Of a stretch of DNA of 64,000 nt, positions 386 through 63,615 are shown piece after piece. Where the stretch lies: the sequence record PX068455.1; one strand, 5' to 3'. The notes below the pieces were generated by a model that was not told the origin of the DNA, did no database searches, and saw only the letters and a program-made list of their open reading frames with translations. The stretch comes from a phage. The position numbers and the translations under genes are program-made. Numbering within the stretch: the stretch's first letter is position 1; each line of letters opens with the position of its first letter.

Positions 386-2368
386 TTATTTGATGTTATT
401 CTTTGTATCAATCAGTTCACGGTATTCAATCATAGCAGGAGTGTCCCAATATTTCAAGCCTACATGCTTCAAAAGTGGATATTTCTTTTCCAATCTTGCA
501 ATATAGGCCTTCCCGCACTTAACCCGGTTGGCGATTAAGATTTTGGCACGATGATTTAGCTCACCGTACTTCCACGTGGTGCTACCTTCCCACTTGTGAA
601 AATGTGGCCGATAACTTCCAAAATCCTGCATGGGGATAATTTTACCTAACTGTCTGTACAGGCTGTCATATGAAGTTTCATTTGCTGCGCGAGTTAGTAA
701 GAATTTCCAAGCATCCTCTTTCAACAAATGTTCCACATTCTTCTCTGTAACATATTGGCAATCAGGATCAGTCCAAAGCAGACGAGATTCCGACACCAGG
801 TACAGATCTTCCCCTTCAGGAATCTGGAGTGCCGCACGCACACGGTCATAATCTTGCTGGTAGATGTTGCTCATCTGCCCTAGCCAACAACTTCCGCGTT
901 GGATATCCCCCTCATACGGTATGCAGTGCTTAATCTTCCTGAACTCTGCCTTAGTAATACGCTCACGCCGGAAGTAACCATCCTTCTCAAGTTTTTTAAC
1001 CCAATAGCCTGGTTCGTAACGGGTTTTGGTTTCACCTTTCTTCGTAGGTCGGCGTGGAAGCTCCGATAACAATTTGACCGTATCTGCAAAAAACGGATGG
1101 TGTGCCGCCTCTTTAAACTCTTTCACCAGATCCGTGTTACGGCAATAGAAAACGTTGCGTCCGGTAATCTCGCTTAAGTAGTTACACTTATTCCGGTTAT
1201 ATTTGCCGTCTCCGTCGTTAAATACTAAATAAACTCCCCGTAAGAATTCTACCTTTCCGTAGCAGGCGTAACCTATGCGGCCTTTATTTAAGCCGCCAGC
1301 GAAGATCTCGCAGTCCCCCAAATTTCCTAGCCCTGTTTCTTCCCAGCGGTCATACATAAAATTCTTACCGAAGATGTGCCCGAACACTCCACTGTTCTTC
1401 ATCATCTCGCGTGCTTCTGAGGATGTTTTTGCTGTCTCCAGTTCTGCAACAACTTCTGCTCCACGAAGGCGAATGCCTTCTTTGACAAAAGCTTCCAAAC
1501 GCTCTTGGAATCCACCATCGTCGTGACCTTCTATGGTCCATTCACGCCCTGGGTTAATATTGCAATCTCCGATAGGGATCTCTACACAAATTGCAGGATA
1601 ATCTATTAGTGTCTCCAGGAACTTAGAACGGTAAGGTTGGTGACCCATTACCACACGACTCTCGTCAGAGCTGGTATAACCCTTCAGGATGGTCATTTTC
1701 CAACCATCCTTCTCGTAGTGATACTGCGCCTCAACCTTGTCACCTTCCAGCATCTTACTGGTCATAGGGTCGGTAACGGTAAACGGAAACTTTGCATAGC
1801 GTAGGCATGACGCAATAGCAGTGCGATATTTCAGGACATGCTCTTTCTTAACATGGAACTGAACTTTTACCCCGTTGTGCTCTTCAGTCTTCCGCTCGCG
1901 GATCTTGGTAACGTTTGGGATACCCTGATCCAAGAACAATAGATATGTGCTTTCAACACCATTGTGCACACTGATAACATCGAAAGTGTCCACCATGCTG
2001 AACGGAGCCTTTGAACCAACACCTTTATTACCTACCAGAGCGTTGCTGTTGCGCTTGGTTGACTCCCCGAGGTTCATGAAAGTGTTGCGGACCATCTCTT
2101 CTGACATGCCCAATCCAACGTCCTGCACAAAGAAGTATGGTTCAAGGTCTGTAGGGGAGTGAATGATGATCGGTACATCACCCCGTCCAGACTCAACATG
2201 AGAGTCCACAGCATTGAAGATTGGTTCACGGCAGCTTGCCAGCACCTTATCTTCGTAAATCCCTTTAATGATTAGCCCAAAAGTCTCTTTGTTCAGAGAA
2301 ATTGAGCCCCTGGTGACCTCCATATTTCCGGTTAGTACTGCTTTAGTTTCATTACTGTTTACAATCAT
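386..2368 (-). CDS. Hsp90/GHKL-family ATPase domain protein
   Basis: 660-aa ORF; N-terminal Bergerat-fold motifs in HtpG-like order and spacing: ETFGLIIKGIY..REPIFNAVDS (ExxxNAxD), DVGLGM (DxGxGM), GNKGVGSKA (GxxGxG); C-terminal 450 aa unassigned. Confidence 0.6.
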   Translation of the reverse strand: MIVNSNETKAVLTGNMEVTRGSISLNKETFGLIIKGIYEDKVLASCREPIFNAVDSHVESGRGDVPIIIHSPTDLEPYFFVQDVGLGMSEEMVRNTFMNLGESTKRNSNALVGNKGVGSKAPFSMVDTFDVISVHNGVESTYLLFLDQGIPNVTKIRERKTEEHNGVKVQFHVKKEHVLKYRTAIASCLRYAKFPFTVTDPMTSKMLEGDKVEAQYHYEKDGWKMTILKGYTSSDESRVVMGHQPYRSKFLETLIDYPAICVEIPIGDCNINPGREWTIEGHDDGGFQERLEAFVKEGIRLRGAEVVAELETAKTSSEAREMMKNSGVFGHIFGKNFMYDRWEETGLGNLGDCEIFAGGLNKGRIGYACYGKVEFLRGVYLVFNDGDGKYNRNKCNYLSEITGRNVFYCRNTDLVKEFKEAAHHPFFADTVKLLSELPRRPTKKGETKTRYEPGYWVKKLEKDGYFRRERITKAEFRKIKHCIPYEGDIQRGSCWLGQMSNIYQQDYDRVRAALQIPEGEDLYLVSESRLLWTDPDCQYVTEKNVEHLLKEDAWKFLLTRAANETSYDSLYRQLGKIIPMQDFGSYRPHFHKWEGSTTWKYGELNHRAKILIANRVKCGKAYIARLEKKYPLLKHVGLKYWDTPAMIEYRELIDTKNNIK

Positions 2369-45341: not shown

Positions 45342-47681
45342 TTACCAAAGATCTGTTGACATAAAGTTAATATCCTTGTTGTTCTCCCACTCAAGTTTTG
45401 CATCAAGTATTTTGCTAAACTCCCCCTCATCTATTGAAATCGTGATTTTACCATCACTAATCTCTAAAGGGAGCATTTCCATAGTTCTTAATTGAGAAGC
45501 AAAACCAGGGCCACCGGGCAACGGAAGAGTCCCTCCCGGTAAGGTGTCCAAAGGATCAACAAACCCGTTACCTCCAGATATGATATCTTTGCGAATCATA
45601 TCGCTGATAGTATCCAGTTGCTGATTTCTCTCACTCAGTGGGTTGAAACGGTCATTAAATAACTCCCCGGCGCTTAATATTGTACCGATAATACCAAGCT
45701 TACCAAGCAGGCCAACTTTACCACCAGGTGTCTTGAGGCCACCTCCCCCTTTTCCTGCCGCACCACCACCAGATCCTTCTGTGGTAGCTGCACCTGCACC
45801 TGCTGCTCCAGCTGCACCTCTTATAGAACTAAGGAATTTGAAGGTTTTTACAAGCATAGATGCCATGACAAAACCTTTTGTCAGGGCGTTCACTACCAGC
45901 ATAATGGCAGCAGCAAACCCTGCCCATTTAGCATAGCTAAAGGTGTCATTAAGCTCTTCAGAATATTCCTTCGTCTTAGCTGTTATGAGTCCCCATTTAA
46001 TCCCCCATTCAAGGAAAAACATGCGGATCTTGACTATGGTATTGTTTAGTTCACCAACTACCCAGTTGAGACCTCTCACAAAACCACTAACAAAATCACC
46101 AGAGGCATCCCACACAAATTGCAAAGTCTCACCAGTGCGAATCAGTGTATAATAGAACTCTGTTAGTTCATCAGCCCAACGGGTGAATAGTTTCTGACGA
46201 GACAGTTCAATGAAGGTTTTCAGTCTGTTTTCTGCCAGTACGTTAGACTTCTGCATTCTTTCATAACCAGCTGCAGATGCCTCGTTCATGTACTTAGCCA
46301 CATACTTCATGATCTTGGCTGTCTTAACCTCACCTTTCTTCATCATGTCCATGAACTGATCCATGGATAGTTCAGAAAGACCAAAAGCCTCTTTGGTGGC
46401 TTTGATAAAAGGTTCGTATGCACCAGGCAATGCTTCAGCAAGTTGTTGCTTCAGTTCTTCGGACATTACCTGTCCTTTACCGAGCATTTGCTGGATTGCC
46501 ATGATGCCACGCTGGTATTTTACCTCATCTGCACCGTAAGCAGCAGCATACTGTGAGTATGCAGAGAATAGCTCATGCACCTCTTGATTTGTCATCTGGT
46601 TTTTGGCGTTTACCGCCATCTGGGCGTAACCTTGAAGACCAGATTTGAGATCAAAACCAAGACGCATAGCCTCTTGCTGGACAAACGCAACCTCACTGTT
46701 GGCTTTGTTTGGATCTCCAGTAACAGCAGTAAGAGCAGCACTTGCCCCCTCCATCATGTGACCAGATCTGTTCACAGCAGTAAATCCAGAGAAAGCCGTA
46801 TACGCAGCTGTTGCATTAATAACAGACCTACGTAAGTCTCTCATGGCATCACCAAGTGTAAGCGTTTGGCTGGTGGCGCTTTTAAATCCAGACTGCAGAG
46901 CTGACAGGTGGGCGTTAAAGGTTGACTTTTTCATCTCTCCGCGAGCAAACCTGGACTCTAACTCTGAGTATCCTGGCAAGCTTCCACGGAATCCGGCCCC
47001 ATACTTGGCAGAAAGTCTTATCGCAGAGTTGTAGAGGTGGGTTCTCCTTGCCTCACGATCCGACATAAGCTTATTATCCATACCAGCTTTACTGTCTCTT
47101 CTTAGCTGCCTATGATAACGATTCATAGCGGCTGTCTGAGCTTTCACAAGGTTAGGGTCGGAAGCCACACCACCCATATTAGGGTTACCTGGGATATACT
47201 TGAAAGATTTGGCATTAGCCAAAACTCTTGCCTTAGGTGCCTTATAACCGCCGTAAGACACTGGTGCAGATTTGGTAGCCTTTTTGGCCTCTTTAGCTTG
47301 CTGCTGGTAGAACTTACGCATCCTAGCCATTTCTGGATTTTTAGCGGTAAGATTACCCACAGCTTGTTTACGTCTCGCGTTCTCCCTACGTTCTATTGCA
47401 GCCCTTACTGCAGCCTCTTTCTTGGCCTGTGCTACGCTCTCCCTGTGCAGTTTAGCATTTGCCTGATATTGCTGTCTGGCAACCCGCTGCATTGTTTGCT
47501 GGGTTTTAACAGCCACTGCCTGCCATCTACTCATTGGGTTGGCTGAGTTAAAATCCTCGCCCAGTTTCCTGAACTCCCTCCCAATACTGCGAATTTTCTC
47601 TACAGCTTTTTTGTAGGAGGAGTTCTCTATCTCAAAGCCAATCTTGTTGACTGTTGTGGCAACTATTTTGTTTGTAGCCAT
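45342..47681 (-). CDS. tail tape measure protein
   Basis: 779 aa, helical and Ala/Lys/Gln-rich; TMP-core-like GIMAIQQMLGKGQVMSEELKQQL; Gly-rich C-terminal region; downstream of frameshifted chaperone pair. Confidence 0.8.
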   Translation of the reverse strand: MATNKIVATTVNKIGFEIENSSYKKAVEKIRSIGREFRKLGEDFNSANPMSRWQAVAVKTQQTMQRVARQQYQANAKLHRESVAQAKKEAAVRAAIERRENARRKQAVGNLTAKNPEMARMRKFYQQQAKEAKKATKSAPVSYGGYKAPKARVLANAKSFKYIPGNPNMGGVASDPNLVKAQTAAMNRYHRQLRRDSKAGMDNKLMSDREARRTHLYNSAIRLSAKYGAGFRGSLPGYSELESRFARGEMKKSTFNAHLSALQSGFKSATSQTLTLGDAMRDLRRSVINATAAYTAFSGFTAVNRSGHMMEGASAALTAVTGDPNKANSEVAFVQQEAMRLGFDLKSGLQGYAQMAVNAKNQMTNQEVHELFSAYSQYAAAYGADEVKYQRGIMAIQQMLGKGQVMSEELKQQLAEALPGAYEPFIKATKEAFGLSELSMDQFMDMMKKGEVKTAKIMKYVAKYMNEASAAGYERMQKSNVLAENRLKTFIELSRQKLFTRWADELTEFYYTLIRTGETLQFVWDASGDFVSGFVRGLNWVVGELNNTIVKIRMFFLEWGIKWGLITAKTKEYSEELNDTFSYAKWAGFAAAIMLVVNALTKGFVMASMLVKTFKFLSSIRGAAGAAGAGAATTEGSGGGAAGKGGGGLKTPGGKVGLLGKLGIIGTILSAGELFNDRFNPLSERNQQLDTISDMIRKDIISGGNGFVDPLDTLPGGTLPLPGGPGFASQLRTMEMLPLEISDGKITISIDEGEFSKILDAKLEWENNKDINFMSTDLW

Positions 47682-47735
47682 GCTTTCCTCATAATAAAAA
47701 GGGCCAGATCCCAGAAAAGGAATCCGGCCCTTAGA

Positions 47736-48101
47736 TTATCCTCTCCTGCGCTTAGCTTTCGCAGCAGCTGCGGCAGCCTTCTGCTCCCGCTCCATTTCCC
47801 TGTTTTGGACGGTATCTAGGAATTCTTCGATATCAAGATACTCACAGAGCTTCAGGAAATACGCCATATCTGCAAGATTTAGCGATTCAAAATTTTCCCC
47901 TTTGAAATTCTTGAGCACCCTGCACCAAAGAAAGTCGAACCAGTTAAGTGAACTGTTCTTAGCTGCCCACTCACTGGCCCTCACAACAACCTTGCTTATT
48001 CCTGCTCTTCCGGAGTCTGATCCAGATTGTTCACCTGCTGGATCATACCCATCTGCTGTAACATCTCCAGAAGGCTTCCTAAACCGTCTTGTGTGAAAAA
48101 A
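47736..48101 (-). CDS. tail assembly chaperone -1 frame extension (gpT-like), made as a G-T fusion by frameshift
   Basis: -1 frame is open from the slippery heptamer U_UUU_UUC (about 48095-48101) through the 82-aa ORF to stop at 47736. Confidence 0.5.
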   Translation of the reverse strand, partial: FFHTRRFRKPSGDVTADGYDPAGEQSGSDSGRAGISKVVVRASEWAAKNSSLNWFDFLWCRVLKNFKGENFESLNLADMAYFLKLCEYLDIEEFLDTVQNREMEREQKAAAAAAKAKRRRG

Positions 48102-48469
48102 CAGCCGTAGTTAACCTCCAGAACCTTACCTGCCAGCTTAATCATCTCCAGCAGATGCCCTGCAAACACAACATCAGGGTTAAGCTTATCCACACCATCC
48201 ACGGTAATATCTTCGAACAAGATTTTAAATAACTCTTCAATAGAGTTATCATCAAGTTCTTGGAACAGGTAAGCTAGGGCTGTAGGAAGGACCTCTGCCA
48301 TATTCTGACCGCCTGAGAGAATAGATCCACCGATAGCACCTAGCGGGACAGCCACAATCTTACCGATTTTAGGCATGTTTTTCATTGCTTTCATCGGTCC
48401 CCAGTGGGTGATCACAAAGTTGTGCCCTGCTAAATCAATCTCTGTTGTAGGTCTAAAGTTTATAGCCAT
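47996..48469 (-). CDS. tail assembly chaperone (gpG-like)
   Basis: 157-aa acidic ORF immediately upstream of tape measure; contains the slippery site 43 codons before its stop. Confidence 0.55.
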   Translation of the reverse strand: MAINFRPTTEIDLAGHNFVITHWGPMKAMKNMPKIGKIVAVPLGAIGGSILSGGQNMAEVLPTALAYLFQELDDNSIEELFKILFEDITVDGVDKLNPDVVFAGHLLEMIKLAGKVLEVNYGCFFTQDGLGSLLEMLQQMGMIQQVNNLDQTPEEQE

Positions 48470-48512: not shown

Positions 48513-48541
48513 ATTTTACCATGATTACGGTGCATTGTCAA
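48513..48541 (-). promoter_or_regulatory. sigma70-like promoter (TTGACA-17-TAAAAT)
   Basis: Consensus -35 at 48536-48541 and -10 at 48513-48518 (minus sense), after terminator 48583-48613. Confidence 0.55.
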
Positions 48542-48582: not shown

Positions 48583-48613
48583 AAAAGCAAAAAGCCCCAC
48601 CCGAAGGTGAGGC
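48583..48613 (-). terminator. intrinsic terminator GCCUCACC-UUCG-GGUGGGGC plus UUUUUGCUUUU
   Basis: UUCG tetraloop hairpin 19 nt after the tube gene stop. Confidence 0.6.
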
Positions 48614-48631
48614 CTATGCTAAAGTGTGCCC

Positions 48632-49105
48632 TTAGATAATACCTGCAAGACCTGCGAGGCCAGTGAGAGCACCAGTGATGTTGTCACGGTTGAGCCATGC
48701 ATCCAGAATACCGATATCCCAGTCCAGCTGACCTACTTCGGTTCCGTAAGTTAGGTCAGGCTGTTTCTGGATCCAACCGATTGTAGCAATGCCAGGGCCC
48801 TGGCTACCTTCCAGCAGAACCGGGAAGAATACCAGACCAGTAATAGATGCCTGTTTCTGCCAGTCAGAAAGGTAAGCGTTCCATACAGAAGTGTTCTGCA
48901 AGGATACAGTCATAACACCAGATTGGTTACGAGACAGAGCTGCAGACATTTCACCATCCACACCAACGTGAGGGTAGATGTTGTCTTCGTTTCTTGAAAC
49001 AACGATCTTGGTGTCAGCAGCGAAGCCAGTGACACGCTGCTGCATCAGATACAGTTTGACCTTTTTAGGGTCATACGCATAAGGAGTTAAAATTTGAGTT
49101 TCCAT
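48632..49105 (-). CDS. tail tube protein (putative)
   Basis: 157 aa between sheath-like gene and chaperone pair. Confidence 0.45.
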   Translation of the reverse strand: METQILTPYAYDPKKVKLYLMQQRVTGFAADTKIVVSRNEDNIYPHVGVDGEMSAALSRNQSGVMTVSLQNTSVWNAYLSDWQKQASITGLVFFPVLLEGSQGPGIATIGWIQKQPDLTYGTEVGQLDWDIGILDAWLNRDNITGALTGLAGLAGII

Positions 49106-49115
49106 CTAGTCTTCC

Positions 49116-50492
49116 TTATTCAGTCATTGCAACAGCATTGGTGGATTTAGAACCAACTTTGTCCAGAAGGACGTTGATCCGGATACGAACGAAGTGCAGG
49201 GCGTTGTTATACACCAGTTCTACTTTCACACCTTCCAGAACACGAGCAGCCAACTGATTGGTTGGGATTTCTGCACGTTTAGGAACTGTGATGATCGGGT
49301 CGTAGAATACATTATTGTCTTCGTCAAAACCTGTCAGGATCGCACCATTTTTAATGCCAGTATTGATCGGGTTGTTCATCAGAACAGACTTGATAACCGG
49401 AAGATCATCATCAGACATCTTCATGCTTAAGCCCATATTGGAGCGGCGATGCATGTACCCAAACATGGACTCTTCAGATCTGAACTTGATCCAGTGTGCA
49501 AAACGGATAGCGTCTGCATACTGACCTGAAGCACACTTACCTTCCCAGAAAGCGCCAACACCGTTAATCATTCTATAGAAGTTAACGTGGTTTTCCCAAA
49601 TCGCCATACGCTGAGTTAAAGTCAGGGATGGTGCAATAACGCCCGGCATCTGTTTTAAATGCAAGCTGTCGCCGTAAGACGGATCGTTGGATGCCATAGC
49701 GCCTACGATACCACCCTCTGGAAAATCTTTATCCGCACGAGGATCGTACATGCCGACACTATCATATTGTGCAGCCATCAGTTTGGTGGCGATGTTATTT
49801 TCTTTGCCAGTCACATCTTCTGCAGTAGAATAGACATGGAGCTTGTAGTTAGCCTGAGCCCACTTAGCACATGCTTCAATGTCGGTGTGGTCTTCATGGC
49901 ACAGGAAGTACCAATTATCACGCTCAGCATTGATCTTATCAACTACTGTAGAAGGTTTTTCAGAATTGGCGATATTTTTGATTGTATAGTTACCAGTATG
50001 ATAACCAACAGTGCAGTCACCAGTGATGGTAATAACACCTTCAGAAGCCTCTACAGTGATATCGTTCAAGTTATCATCTGCTTCGATTTTAGTCTTCATT
50101 GATTCTGCAATCTGAGTTGCACCTGTTCCACCAGAGATAGGTACTATCAGAGAAGTATTGTAGCCACCTTTTGCAATGGTCATTACGACATCGGTATCAG
50201 CTGCGGCAGCAATACCTTTAAAATCTACAGTGGTTTTTTCTTTAGCCTGTCTGCCGATCATAACGTATTGTGGAGGGAATACACCGCCGAAAGCTTTTGC
50301 TGCAAACTCATACGCTGCAGAGCCTTGTGCGAAACCGTCTTCCACCATCTGGTCCAGCTCCGCATACACGCGAGCTCGCTCAGTAAAGTTGTTGTGGATA
50401 GCGATGAACAGCGGGGTTTCGAAACCTACAGTGTCAATAGGCTGGGTTCCGAGGTTAACTGTAACATCTACCACTTTATCTAAATATGGCAT
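49116..50492 (-). CDS. tail sheath protein (putative)
   Basis: 458 aa; C-terminal IWENHVNFYRMINGVGAFWEGK resembles the conserved sheath motif; followed by a tube-sized ORF. Confidence 0.55.
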   Translation of the reverse strand: MPYLDKVVDVTVNLGTQPIDTVGFETPLFIAIHNNFTERARVYAELDQMVEDGFAQGSAAYEFAAKAFGGVFPPQYVMIGRQAKEKTTVDFKGIAAAADTDVVMTIAKGGYNTSLIVPISGGTGATQIAESMKTKIEADDNLNDITVEASEGVITITGDCTVGYHTGNYTIKNIANSEKPSTVVDKINAERDNWYFLCHEDHTDIEACAKWAQANYKLHVYSTAEDVTGKENNIATKLMAAQYDSVGMYDPRADKDFPEGGIVGAMASNDPSYGDSLHLKQMPGVIAPSLTLTQRMAIWENHVNFYRMINGVGAFWEGKCASGQYADAIRFAHWIKFRSEESMFGYMHRRSNMGLSMKMSDDDLPVIKSVLMNNPINTGIKNGAILTGFDEDNNVFYDPIITVPKRAEIPTNQLAARVLEGVKVELVYNNALHFVRIRINVLLDKVGSKSTNAVAMTE

Positions 50493-60504: not shown

Positions 60505-60610
60505 TTTTAAGGCTCCAGAAACGAAAAAACCCCGCAGCTATACAGCTAACGGGGCGGGTTAAAATTGAGTAACCTAAATAGATCGAAACTAACTAAAAGG
60601 AGACTAATAC

Positions 60611-63036: not shown

Positions 63037-63615
63037 TCAACGTTCGTAGTAAATCTTATTCAACATTACCTCATCGTTTGCAGAAAGGATATCAAGATAT
63101 GCATCACCAAATCTGCCTGCAACAACCTCTGCATGATACATCACTTCGTTAACATCGTCAAGAGTGATAACCGGATGACCATATCTTTCTGAATATTGTC
63201 TCAGTGTGCGATGTAACGAGTCGTCATCATATGCAGACTTTTTAATATCACAAACACGACGAATGGCCTTGATGTCGAAAAAACCTGTGCGATACCACCC
63301 AAGAAAAAAGTTCCGTGTAGTGTCAACATCTACATCAATACCATTAAGAACCTTATCTACAAGATAGCTGTCATCCTTTGGACTAGCGTCCTTAGTGCGA
63401 ATGTAGTTGCCATCTTTTCCAGGTGATAGCTCCTTCTCATCACCAACTTGCATGCCATCATTTGGCGGTGTTAGCCACTTATCAGGATGCTTACGATCAC
63501 GAGCGTTAGAATGATTACGCTGGAAACCTGGCTTCCACTTGAAAGTTTTCTCCATCTGTTCTTCATTCTGATAACGTTTTGCAATCTTTTCACTGGCATC
63601 TTTGCGTGAACTCAT
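63037..63615 (-). CDS. hypothetical protein
   Basis: 192-aa ORF with AGGAG RBS. Confidence 0.4.
   Translation of the reverse strand: MSSRKDASEKIAKRYQNEEQMEKTFKWKPGFQRNHSNARDRKHPDKWLTPPNDGMQVGDEKELSPGKDGNYIRTKDASPKDDSYLVDKVLNGIDVDVDTTRNFFLGWYRTGFFDIKAIRRVCDIKKSAYDDDSLHRTLRQYSERYGHPVITLDDVNEVMYHAEVVAGRFGDAYLDILSANDEVMLNKIYYER

What the first reader, a model, noticed from the sequence alone, without database searches (positions are those of the whole stretch)
47736..48469. Programmed -1 frameshift site (U UUU UUC) in the tail assembly chaperone pair
In the 157-aa gpG-like ORF the heptamer TTTTTTC sits in the X_XXY_YYZ phase at about 48095-48101, 43 codons before the stop. The -1 frame is open from there through the 82-aa ORF 47736..47984, which would give a G-T-type fusion of about 245 aa ending in a basic tail (KAKRRRG). 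This fixes the true gene structure and supports the tape-measure assignment.
Basis: seen in the sequence. Interest (0 to 1): 0.45.

Follow-up and report, generated by a model that had tools for sequence, protein, structure and literature searches.

The report
Tail chaperone -1 frameshift site
An rV5-like E. coli phage almost certainly makes a second, longer tail-assembly chaperone by slipping the ribosome back one base at a conserved TTTTTTC; this is the well-known lambda G/GT and P2 E/E+E' trick, but it is not annotated in any of the records of this phage group that I inspected.

Summary
On the minus strand, T_TTT_TTC (48101..48095) is in X_XXY_YYZ phase at codons 124-125 of the 157-aa chaperone gene (48469..47996). 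It is the only in-phase heptamer in that gene. The -1 frame opens three codons upstream and runs to 47736, giving a 244-aa, 27-kDa fusion. One detail is wrong: the site is 33 codons before the stop, not 43.

The window is a Vequintavirus (100% identical to phage ECP2303), with gene order sheath, tube, chaperone, tape measure.

Comparative evidence is strong:
- 59 of the 61 related loci examined keep the heptamer in phase, down to about 28% protein identity.
- One of the other two has C_CCT_TTT; a Rheinheimera phage has lambda's G_GGA_AAG four codons downstream.
- Synonymous variation collapses at the site.
- The -1 peptide is conserved from the heptamer onward.
- In many relatives the conserved downstream domain has no usable start codon.

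No conserved downstream RNA structure was found. An upstream Shine-Dalgarno-like GGAGGT, 12 nt away, may stimulate slippage.

None of the 22 family GenBank records inspected annotates the shift.

Verdict: real, ordinary in kind, a new member of a known class. No product was observed.

The parts
47996..48469 (-). Gene G: tail assembly chaperone, 157 aa, 17.3 kDa, the zero-frame product
   Evidence: ORF list and translation. PF21822 Phage_TAC_15 at E=1.1e-23 and phrog_3840 'tail assembly chaperone' at E=6e-69. Mass.
48095..48101 (-). Slippery heptamer T_TTT_TTC in X_XXY_YYZ phase (codons Cys123-Phe124-Phe125)
   Evidence: Kept in phase in 59 of 61 related loci. Site codons are TTT-TTC in 22 of 22 representatives, while Phe codons elsewhere in the same genes are 82 TTT to 80 TTC.
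47736..48095 (-). -1 frame extension (T segment): 119 aa added after Phe125. It has an RFR motif, a Gly/Ser/Asp-rich linker, a conserved core (ISKVVxRA..NSSLxWFDxLWCR..) and a poly-Ala and basic C-terminus. It includes the annotated 82-aa ORF 47984..47736.
   Evidence: phrog_10409 (unknown function) covers residues 38-119; there is no Pfam hit.
47736..48469 (-). Coding span of the predicted GT fusion (48469..48095 in frame 0, then 48095..47736 in frame -1): 244 aa, 27.1 kDa
48111..48113 (-). TAA that closes the -1 frame three codons upstream of the heptamer. It sets the 5' limit of the window in which a shift can be productive.
48114..48119 (-). Shine-Dalgarno-like GGAGGT, 12 nt 5' of the heptamer. 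A candidate upstream stimulator (inferred, not shown).
   Evidence: GGAG or GAGG ends 11-14 nt upstream in 17 of 23 representatives. The Glu codon there is GAG 17 to GAA 3, against 71 to 201 elsewhere in the same genes.
48513..48541 (-). Sigma-70-like promoter (TTGACA, 17 nt spacer, TAAAAT with a TG extension; 11 of 12 matches) upstream of G
   Evidence: The rV5 record annotates promoter P51 at the homologous place.
47699..47732 (-). Intrinsic-terminator-like hairpin (14 pairs) followed by a T run, between the T stop and the tape-measure start
   Evidence: Annotated as a terminator in the rV5 and EdH4 records.
45342..47681 (-). Tape measure protein gene, 779 aa (context: the presumed client of G/GT)
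   Evidence: phrog_5255 E=0 and PF20155 TMP_3 E=4e-18.
48632..49105 (-). Tail tube gene, 157 aa (context)
   Evidence: phrog_280 and PF11681. Position after the sheath gene 49116..50492 (phrog_205).

Best explanation
This is a programmed -1 ribosomal frameshift site of the lambda G/GT and P2 E/E+E' type, in the tail assembly chaperone gene of an rV5-like myovirus.

Proposed mechanism:
- Most ribosomes read gene G to its stop and make a 17-kDa acidic chaperone.
- A minority slip back one base when tRNA-Phe sits on UUU in the P site and on UUC in the A site, within U_UUU_UUC. Both tRNAs re-pair with UUU.
- These ribosomes continue in the -1 frame for 119 more codons, giving a 27-kDa GT protein. 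GT shares the first 125 residues of G and carries a C-terminal T domain.

By analogy with lambda, G and GT would coat the tape measure protein and recruit the tube protein, would be needed in a fixed ratio, and would be absent from the finished virion.

The slip probably relies on the heptamer itself. It may be helped by an internal Shine-Dalgarno-like GGAGGU 12 nt upstream, as in dnaX.

Shown here: the sequence anatomy and its evolutionary conservation. Inferred: the slip itself, its efficiency, the role of the upstream element, and the chaperone function.
For: Anatomy:
- The heptamer is in phase, is the only one in G, and sits at the very start of the 37-codon overlap. The -1 frame is open for 124 codons.
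- Gene order is sheath, tube, TAC, tape measure, the same as P2's FI-FII-E/E+E'-T. P2 has T_TTT_TTG in phase, annotated as a -1 frameshift.

Conservation:
- 59 of 61 related loci keep T_TTT_TTC in phase. They come from five named Vequintavirinae genera plus unassigned members, two Stephanstirmvirinae genera, Plateaulakevirus and IMG/VR contigs, down to about 28% identity.
- Pseudaeromonas phage KLEP7 has C_CCT_TTT instead. Rheinheimera phage Barba18A has G_GGA_AAG four codons downstream. Both have a homologous T domain in the -1 frame.

Codon-level selection:
- The site is TTT-TTC in 22 of 22 representatives, and the preceding wobble base is always T. Phe codons elsewhere are 82 to 80.
- Pairwise synonymous diversity falls from 0.55 upstream to 0.14-0.20 at the site.

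The -1 frame is translated from the heptamer:
- The FF..RFR motif and the T core are conserved.
- In Hena1, KpS8, phiTE, L043, L047 and others, the first start codon downstream of the heptamer lies at -1 codon 60-85, inside the conserved core.
- Stephanstirmvirinae have no start codon between the upstream stop and the heptamer.

Heptamer class: Sharma et al. 2014 (PMC4066793) place H_HH.U_UU.Y among the most efficient motifs in E. coli. They list U_UU.U_UU.C as under-represented in genes and used by IS elements.

Virion proteomes of relatives W70 and CB7 do not list the genes between tube and tape measure.
Against: - No protein or ribosome data exist for this phage or, as far as I found, for any relative.
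- No conserved downstream stimulatory structure was found. Mean z was about 0 over 22 representatives, and the alifold consensus was -4.9 kcal/mol with no convincing covariation.
- Sharma et al. state only that this heptamer gave more than 0.10% frameshifting without stimulators, so efficiency could be low.
- In this window the -1 ORF has possible starts of its own: GTG at 47984 preceded by a weak AAGG, and CTG at 48104..48102, 9 nt after GGAGGT. Some free T protein therefore cannot be excluded.
- Part of the heptamer's conservation could reflect the conserved NYG(C/P)FF peptide of G. The codon-choice test argues against that being the whole story.
- 39 of the comparison loci were retrieved partly with a peptide pattern containing FF. 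This biases the amino acids sampled but not the codons.
Confidence: 0.88

Rival explanations
1. The downstream ORF is an ordinary separate gene, as GenBank annotates it. It would start either at GTG 47984 (82 aa) or at the CTG just before the heptamer, which lies 9 nt after a strong GGAGGT (122 aa, as annotated in rV5 and JES2013). The heptamer would be incidental.
For: The records annotate independent ORFs. The Mangalyan record marks a ribosome-binding site before the GTG. In lineages with Cys at this position, the -1 codon before TTT TTT is NTG: CTG in most, ATG in Hena1 and L025, TTG in L032.
Against: - No start is conserved. Annotated lengths range from 43 to 122 aa, or the ORF is not annotated at all.
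- Conserved residues (ISKVV, FF..RFR) lie upstream of the GTG.
- In many relatives the first start codon downstream of the heptamer falls inside the conserved core.
- Stephanstirmvirinae have CCC, not NTG, and no start codon in the open -1 stretch.
- The commonest codon is CTG, a very poor initiator.
- This reading does not explain why TTT-TTC is fixed or why other lineages substitute other slippery heptamers.
Confidence: 0.05
2. The same fusion is made by transcriptional slippage. RNA polymerase would add one U on the T6 run, so a fraction of mRNAs carry the two frames joined.
For: The site is a homopolymeric run of six T. An inserted U would give the same reading frame and nearly the same protein. 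Nothing in the DNA alone separates the two routes.
Against: - From general knowledge, not tested here: efficient bacterial transcriptional slippage usually needs runs of about 9 or more.
- KLEP7 has only T5 but keeps an in-phase C_CCT_TTT. Barba18A has G_GGA_AAG, with no long run.
- The site always satisfies the two-tRNA re-pairing rule, and the Z position is always C. Polymerase slippage requires neither.
- A conserved SD-like element at dnaX-like spacing acts on ribosomes, not on polymerase.
Confidence: 0.05
3. Chance co-occurrence: a slippery-looking heptamer and an open -1 frame with no recoding, the downstream ORF being non-functional.
For: Any XXXYYYZ heptamer would fall in phase in a 37-codon overlap about 13% of the time. 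Two other in-phase TTTTTTC sites exist in the window.
Against: The -1 ORF is conserved as a protein across subfamilies. Synonymous sites are constrained. The heptamer is conserved or functionally replaced.
Confidence: 0.01

Closest known systems
Phage P2 E / E+E' (Peduovirus). By my recollection Christie et al. 2002 measured about 10% -1 shift; the record NC_001895 annotates the join.
   Same: Both are contractile-tailed phages with the gene order sheath, tube, chaperone pair, tape measure. Both have a U6-type heptamer in X_XXY_YYZ phase (P2: T_TTT_TTG, read). In both, the downstream frame lacks its own start and the fusion shares the N-terminus of the short product.
   Different: No detectable sequence similarity: there was no Pfam hit to the P2 GpE family. 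P2's E is 91 aa and its overlap is only a few codons from the stop. Here G is 157 aa and the shift is 33 codons before the stop. The Z base is C rather than G.
Phage lambda G / GT. From general knowledge: Levin et al. 1993; Xu, Hendrix and Duda 2004; Xu et al. 2013.
   Same: The chaperone pair sits immediately upstream of the tape-measure gene and is coupled by a -1 slip on a heptamer, with no required downstream structure. The products are expected to be absent from virions. A distant relative of this family (Rheinheimera phage Barba18A) uses lambda's own heptamer, G_GGA_AAG.
   Different: Lambda is a siphovirus. The heptamer differs. There is no sequence homology to gpG or gpT. The roles of the G and T domains (binding tube protein and tape measure) are assumed here, not shown.
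E. coli dnaX -1 frameshift signal
   Same: A slippery heptamer with a Shine-Dalgarno-like element upstream at comparable spacing. Here GGAGGU lies 12 nt upstream; Sharma et al. 2014 searched for such elements 6-17 nt upstream.
   Different: dnaX also has a strong downstream hairpin and yields a shorter product. No downstream structure is supported here, and the product is longer. The stimulatory role of the SD-like element here is only inferred from codon bias.

Membership tests
G/GT-type tail assembly chaperone pair with programmed -1 frameshift (Xu, Hendrix and Duda 2004 class) | The pair lies between the major tail (tube) gene and the tape-measure gene | tested here: met
   Order is sheath 50492..49116, tube 49105..48632, G 48469..47996, T ..47736, tape measure 47681..45342, with PHROG and Pfam support.
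G/GT-type tail assembly chaperone pair with programmed -1 frameshift (Xu, Hendrix and Duda 2004 class) | The downstream ORF overlaps the end of the upstream ORF in the -1 frame and has no conserved start of its own | tested here: met
   The overlap is 37 codons. Start codons are not conserved, and in many relatives they fall inside the conserved T core.
G/GT-type tail assembly chaperone pair with programmed -1 frameshift (Xu, Hendrix and Duda 2004 class) | A canonical X_XXY_YYZ slippery heptamer in phase within the overlap, conserved in relatives | tested here: met
   T_TTT_TTC at 48101..48095. It is present in 59 of 61 related loci, and the other two have canonical heptamers of their own. A codon-choice test supports selection at nucleotide level.
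G/GT-type tail assembly chaperone pair with programmed -1 frameshift (Xu, Hendrix and Duda 2004 class) | A fusion protein is actually produced at a low fixed ratio, and both products are required for tail assembly | not testable with these tools
   This needs Western blotting, mass spectrometry and genetics. No such data were found in the held literature.
G/GT-type tail assembly chaperone pair with programmed -1 frameshift (Xu, Hendrix and Duda 2004 class) | The products are absent from mature virions | tested here: inconclusive
   Only indirect evidence. The virion proteome tables of relatives W70 and CB7 list the tube and tape-measure proteins but not the genes between them. There are no data for this phage.
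Pfam PF21822 Phage_TAC_15 (sequence family of the G part) | Score above the curated gathering threshold | tested here: met
   84.5 bits against a cut-off of 22, E=1.1e-23, residues 15-129. All 73 database homologues carry PF21822.
Tail assembly chaperone fold (solved TAC-like proteins such as B. subtilis YqbN/XkdN-like) | The predicted structure matches a solved TAC structure | tested here: inconclusive
   [not shown]
P2 GpE/E+E' and lambda gpG/gpT sequence families | Detectable sequence homology | tested here: not met
   There were no Pfam hits other than PF21822 for G and none for the T part, and no PDB or NCBIfam hits. It works like these systems but is not a sequence member.
dnaX-type stimulated -1 signal | An SD-like element about 10-14 nt upstream of the heptamer | tested here: met
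   GGAGGT at 48119..48114, 12 nt upstream. It is present in 17 of 23 representatives, with GAG favoured 17 to 3 against 71 to 201 elsewhere. Its function is untested.
dnaX-type stimulated -1 signal | A stable hairpin or pseudoknot 5-9 nt downstream | tested here: not met
   No conserved structure was found. Mean z was +0.18 for 50 nt and -0.35 for 90 nt downstream. The window's own fold has z -1.94, with stems starting about 20 nt away or more. The alifold result shows no convincing covariation.

The most novel reading that the evidence does not exclude
The frameshift in this large group of myoviruses (Vequintavirinae, Stephanstirmvirinae and allies) would be driven without any downstream RNA structure. 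It would instead use a conserved internal Shine-Dalgarno-like element 11-14 nt upstream of U_UUU_UUC, as in dnaX. The chaperone cassette would also be its own promoter-to-terminator transcription unit, so the G:GT:tape-measure ratio is set at three levels. That would be a distinct, family-wide variant of the tail-chaperone recoding signal.
Probability: 0.35. Interest if true: 0.35.

Novelty: new member of a known kind. Interest (0 to 1): 0.25.

Why it matters
The finding corrects the gene structure of a widely sequenced group of therapeutic and biocontrol phages: rV5-like, PVP-SE1-like and phAPEC8-like, with hundreds of GenBank records. In these records the downstream ORF is called inconsistently: 43, 58-60, 78-82 or 122 aa, or not at all. 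It is always labelled 'hypothetical', and no ribosomal slippage is annotated in the 22 family records inspected. The finding also gives PHROG 10409 (unknown function) an identity as the T domain of a GT chaperone. It provides a clean comparative example in which the slippery heptamer is swapped (U_UUU_UUC, C_CCU_UUU, G_GGA_AAG) while the architecture is kept. It does not change what is understood about tail assembly or recoding.

Tried and rejected
- Downstream stimulatory RNA structure. I folded the window sequence (z -1.94, stems too far from the site), ran alifold on six Vequintavirinae (no convincing covariation), and computed z-scores for 22 representatives (mean about 0). Rejected.
- Natural in-frame G-T fusions, which would prove the fusion exists. 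I searched 5.8 billion proteins with the 244-aa fusion. All 73 hits were 149-159 aa G proteins.
- Sequence links of the fusion to solved structures or NCBIfam models: none.
- Prior description in the literature. The rV5 genome paper, the Septuagintavirus paper, the CB7 paper and six completed full-text searches gave no mention of a frameshift in this group. The library lacks most subscription journals, so this is not proof of absence.
- Annotated joins. I inspected 22 GenBank and RefSeq records of the family and none carries one. P2, used as a control, does.
- Internal initiation at the NTG codon before the heptamer. Considered because GGAGGT sits 9 nt upstream of it. Rejected as the general mechanism because half of the lineages have CCC there.

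Full report
WHAT IS IN THE SEQUENCE

All genes concerned are on the minus strand. The ORF list and family scans give this order:
- Tail sheath, 50492..49116 (phrog_205).
- Tube, 49105..48632 (phrog_280, PF11681).
- A 157-aa ORF, 48469..47996. It matches phrog_3840 'tail assembly chaperone' (E=6e-69) and Pfam PF21822 Phage_TAC_15 (84.5 bits, cut-off 22).
- An 82-aa ORF, 47984..47736 (phrog_10409, unknown function).
- A 779-aa tape measure protein, 47681..45342 (phrog_5255 E=0, PF20155).

Reading the region and translating all frames shows the following:
- TTTTTTC lies at 48101..48095. The zero frame reads TG|T TTT TTC (Cys123-Phe124-Phe125), so the phase is X_XXY_YYZ.
- It is the only in-phase XXXYYYZ heptamer in the gene.
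- The -1 frame carries a TAA at 48113..48111, three codons upstream. It is then open to the stop at 47738..47736.
- A slip therefore gives 125 + 119 = 244 aa (27.1 kDa), ending AAAAAAKAKRRRG.

IS IT MORE THAN CHANCE?

TTTTTTC is under-represented in the window: 9 matches on both strands against 18 +/- 4 in shuffles. Two other in-phase copies lie in open frames (63283..63277 and 60529..60523, minus strand). Their -1 frames close after 24 and 38 codons, against 124 here. On its own the site is suggestive. The weight comes from comparison with relatives.

IDENTITY OF THE WINDOW

The region is 100% identical to Escherichia phage ECP2303 and 98-99% identical to FV3, rV5 variants and more than 100 other Vequintavirus genomes.

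I inspected 22 GenBank and RefSeq records of the family, 24 counting the distant Barbavirus and Plateaulakevirus records. None annotates a joined CDS. They include rV5 itself, FV3-like phages, slur16, the CPT-annotated Mangalyan, Hena1, phiTE, KpS8, ukendt and alia.

The downstream ORF is called inconsistently. It appears as 78-82 aa from various starts (GTG in Vequintavirus), 122 aa from a CTG, 58-60 aa or 43 aa, or it is not called at all. P2, used as a control, does carry a 'j2' join.

The rV5 genome paper contains no mention of a frameshift or chaperone. Full-text searches combining this phage group with frameshift terms found nothing relevant.

COMPARATIVE EVIDENCE

A tblastn search with the hypothetical fusion found 491 phage records. 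In 356 of them one matched place covers at least 80% of the fusion, and in the listed rows such places are two pieces, one for G and one for the T segment.

I fetched representatives of Vequintavirus, Henunavirus, Seunavirus, Mydovirus, Certrevirus, an unassigned Vequintavirinae phage (A73), Phapecoctavirus, Justusliebigvirus and KLEP7, plus 39 IMG/VR loci.

The heptamer:
- In 58 of these 59 loci, T_TTT_TTC is in phase at the start of the G/-1 overlap.
- The exception, KLEP7, reads C_CCT_TTT in phase.
- Stephanstirmvirinae read C_CCT_TTT_TTC, which is two overlapping heptamers.
- Two more distant relatives extend the picture. Aeromonas phage 4L372D keeps T_TTT_TTC.
- Rheinheimera phage Barba18A has lost the FF motif but carries lambda's G_GGA_AAG in phase four codons downstream. 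Its -1 ORF again encodes the homologous T domain.
- Replacement of one canonical slippery heptamer by another is hard to explain except by selection for slippage.

Protein constraint or nucleotide constraint? The peptide NYG(C/P)FF is conserved in G, so I tested codon choice in 23 representatives below 88% nucleotide identity:
- Phe codons elsewhere in these genes are 82 TTT to 80 TTC. At the site they are TTT then TTC in 22 of 22.
- The preceding wobble base is always T: TGT in 12 and CCT in 10, whereas CCT is only 35% of Pro codons elsewhere.
- Even if only 6-8 independent clades are counted, P is about 1e-6 to 1e-8.
- Pairwise synonymous diversity is about 0.55 along the gene. It falls to 0.14-0.20 from two codons before to seven codons after the heptamer.

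Is the -1 frame translated from the heptamer? Aligning the -1 translations shows:
- There is a conserved FF-x(2,3)-RF(R/V) motif immediately after the site.
- This is followed by a variable Gly/Ser/Asp-rich linker, then a conserved core (ISKVVxRAxEYAxKNSSLxWFDYLWCR...LDIEEF).
- Downstream of the heptamer, the first ATG, GTG or TTG in the -1 frame lies inside that core in many relatives: codon 81 of 123 in Hena1, 85 in KpS8, 65 in phiTE, and 60-68 in several IMG/VR lineages.
- Stephanstirmvirinae have no start codon at all between the upstream -1 stop and the heptamer.
- The T domain therefore cannot be expressed in those phages other than as an extension of G.

STIMULATORY ELEMENTS

No downstream structure is supported:
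- The window's fold has z = -1.94, with stems beginning about 20 nt or more from the site.
- The consensus fold of six Vequintavirinae is -4.9 kcal/mol, with only one pair showing a compensatory change, in a hairpin about 50 nt away.
- The mean z over 22 representatives is +0.18 for 50 nt and -0.35 for 90 nt.

Upstream there is a candidate:
- GGAGGT at 48119..48114 lies 12 nt from the heptamer.
- GGAG or GAGG ends 11-14 nt upstream in 17 of 23 representatives. Such 4-mers occur at 0.44% of positions elsewhere in the genes.
- The Glu codon involved is GAG 17 to GAA 3, against 71 to 201 elsewhere (Fisher P = 2e-7, not corrected for phylogeny).
- Because the -1 frame is closed there, dual coding cannot explain this bias.
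- It fits an internal Shine-Dalgarno stimulator of the dnaX kind. Sharma et al. searched for such elements 6-17 nt upstream. This remains an inference, and Certrevirus-like lineages lack the element.

HEPTAMER CLASS

Sharma et al. 2014 (PMC4066793) tested all 64 heptamers in E. coli:
- UUN and AAN A-site codons are the most shift-prone.
- U_UU.C is the second-best tetramer.
- H_HH.U_UU.Y, which includes both U_UUU_UUC and C_CCU_UUU, is in the high-efficiency class.
- U_UU.U_UU.C is under-represented in E. coli genes and is used by IS elements.

P2's experimentally characterised E/E+E' site reads T_TTT_TTG in phase.

MECHANISM

Most likely (about 0.88): tandem -1 slippage of the two tRNA-Phe on U_UUU_UUC yields a minority GT product alongside G. 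By analogy with lambda and P2, the two products chaperone the tape measure protein and nucleate tube polymerisation. They are expected to be left out of the virion, and the W70 and CB7 virion proteome tables lack the genes between tube and tape measure.

Rivals:
- Independent initiation (0.05). It is possible in this phage at GTG 47984 or at CTG 48104, but it cannot be the family-wide mechanism.
- Transcriptional slippage on T6 (0.05). It is disfavoured by the T5 and G_GGA_AAG variants and by strict adherence to the two-tRNA rule.
- Chance (0.01).

OTHER TESTS

- The 244-aa fusion finds only 149-159-aa G proteins among 5.8 billion sequences, so no natural in-frame fusion exists to serve as proof.
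- There is no sequence hit in the PDB or NCBIfam.

VERDICT

This is an ordinary, well-understood kind of recoding site, not previously annotated in the records of this phage group that I inspected. Its value is corrective: it fixes the gene structure and gives phrog_10409 a function. It also offers a neat example of heptamer turnover and a candidate upstream stimulator. Novelty: a new member of a known kind. Interest: 0.25.

Noticed in passing
window 48615..48592, 48541..48513 and 47732..47699 (minus strand): The G/GT cassette is bracketed by a terminator-like hairpin after the tube gene, a near-consensus sigma-70 promoter (TTGACA, 17 nt spacer, TG-TAAAAT) and a 14-bp terminator hairpin before the tape-measure gene. 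This suggests it is its own transcription unit. The rV5 and EdH4 records annotate the same elements.
   Followed up: partly
window 63277..63283 and 60523..60529 (minus strand): Two further TTTTTTC heptamers are in X_XXY_YYZ phase within open frames of 198 and 143 codons. Their -1 frames close after 24 and 38 codons, so a slip would give truncated products. Whether these are real genes or functional sites was not examined.
   Followed up: no
whole window: TTTTTTC is under-represented on both strands: 9 observed against 18 +/- 4 in dinucleotide-preserving shuffles. This is consistent with avoidance of slippery runs.
   Followed up: partly
L062 (Rheinheimera phage Barba18A, NC_048189), G gene 817..1287: This distant relative lacks the FF/TTTTTTC site. 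It has lambda's G_GGA_AAG in phase four codons downstream, with a homologous T domain in the -1 frame. It is an example of slippery-site turnover and is also unannotated.
   Followed up: partly
GenBank MG065646-MG065689 ('Campylobacter phage' D1, C15, A12a, A141 and others), seen: Records labelled as Campylobacter jejuni phages are 97-98% identical to E. coli rV5-like and phAPEC8-like phages in this region. The host labels look doubtful, or the samples were mixed.
   Followed up: no
L059 (MiataMamis), L007 (JES2013), L019 (rV5), L015 (KpS8), L011 (phiTE): The T segment is annotated in at least five incompatible ways across the records: 78-82 aa, 122 aa from CTG, 58-60 aa, 43 aa, split into two small ORFs, or absent.
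   Followed up: yes
[not shown]
   Followed up: no
proteins P0005-P0045: A large set of 154-aa G homologues at 72-75% identity sits on contigs of about 130-142 kb from Logan and ENA assemblies. This may be a Vequintavirus-related lineage that was not among the GenBank hits inspected.
   Followed up: no
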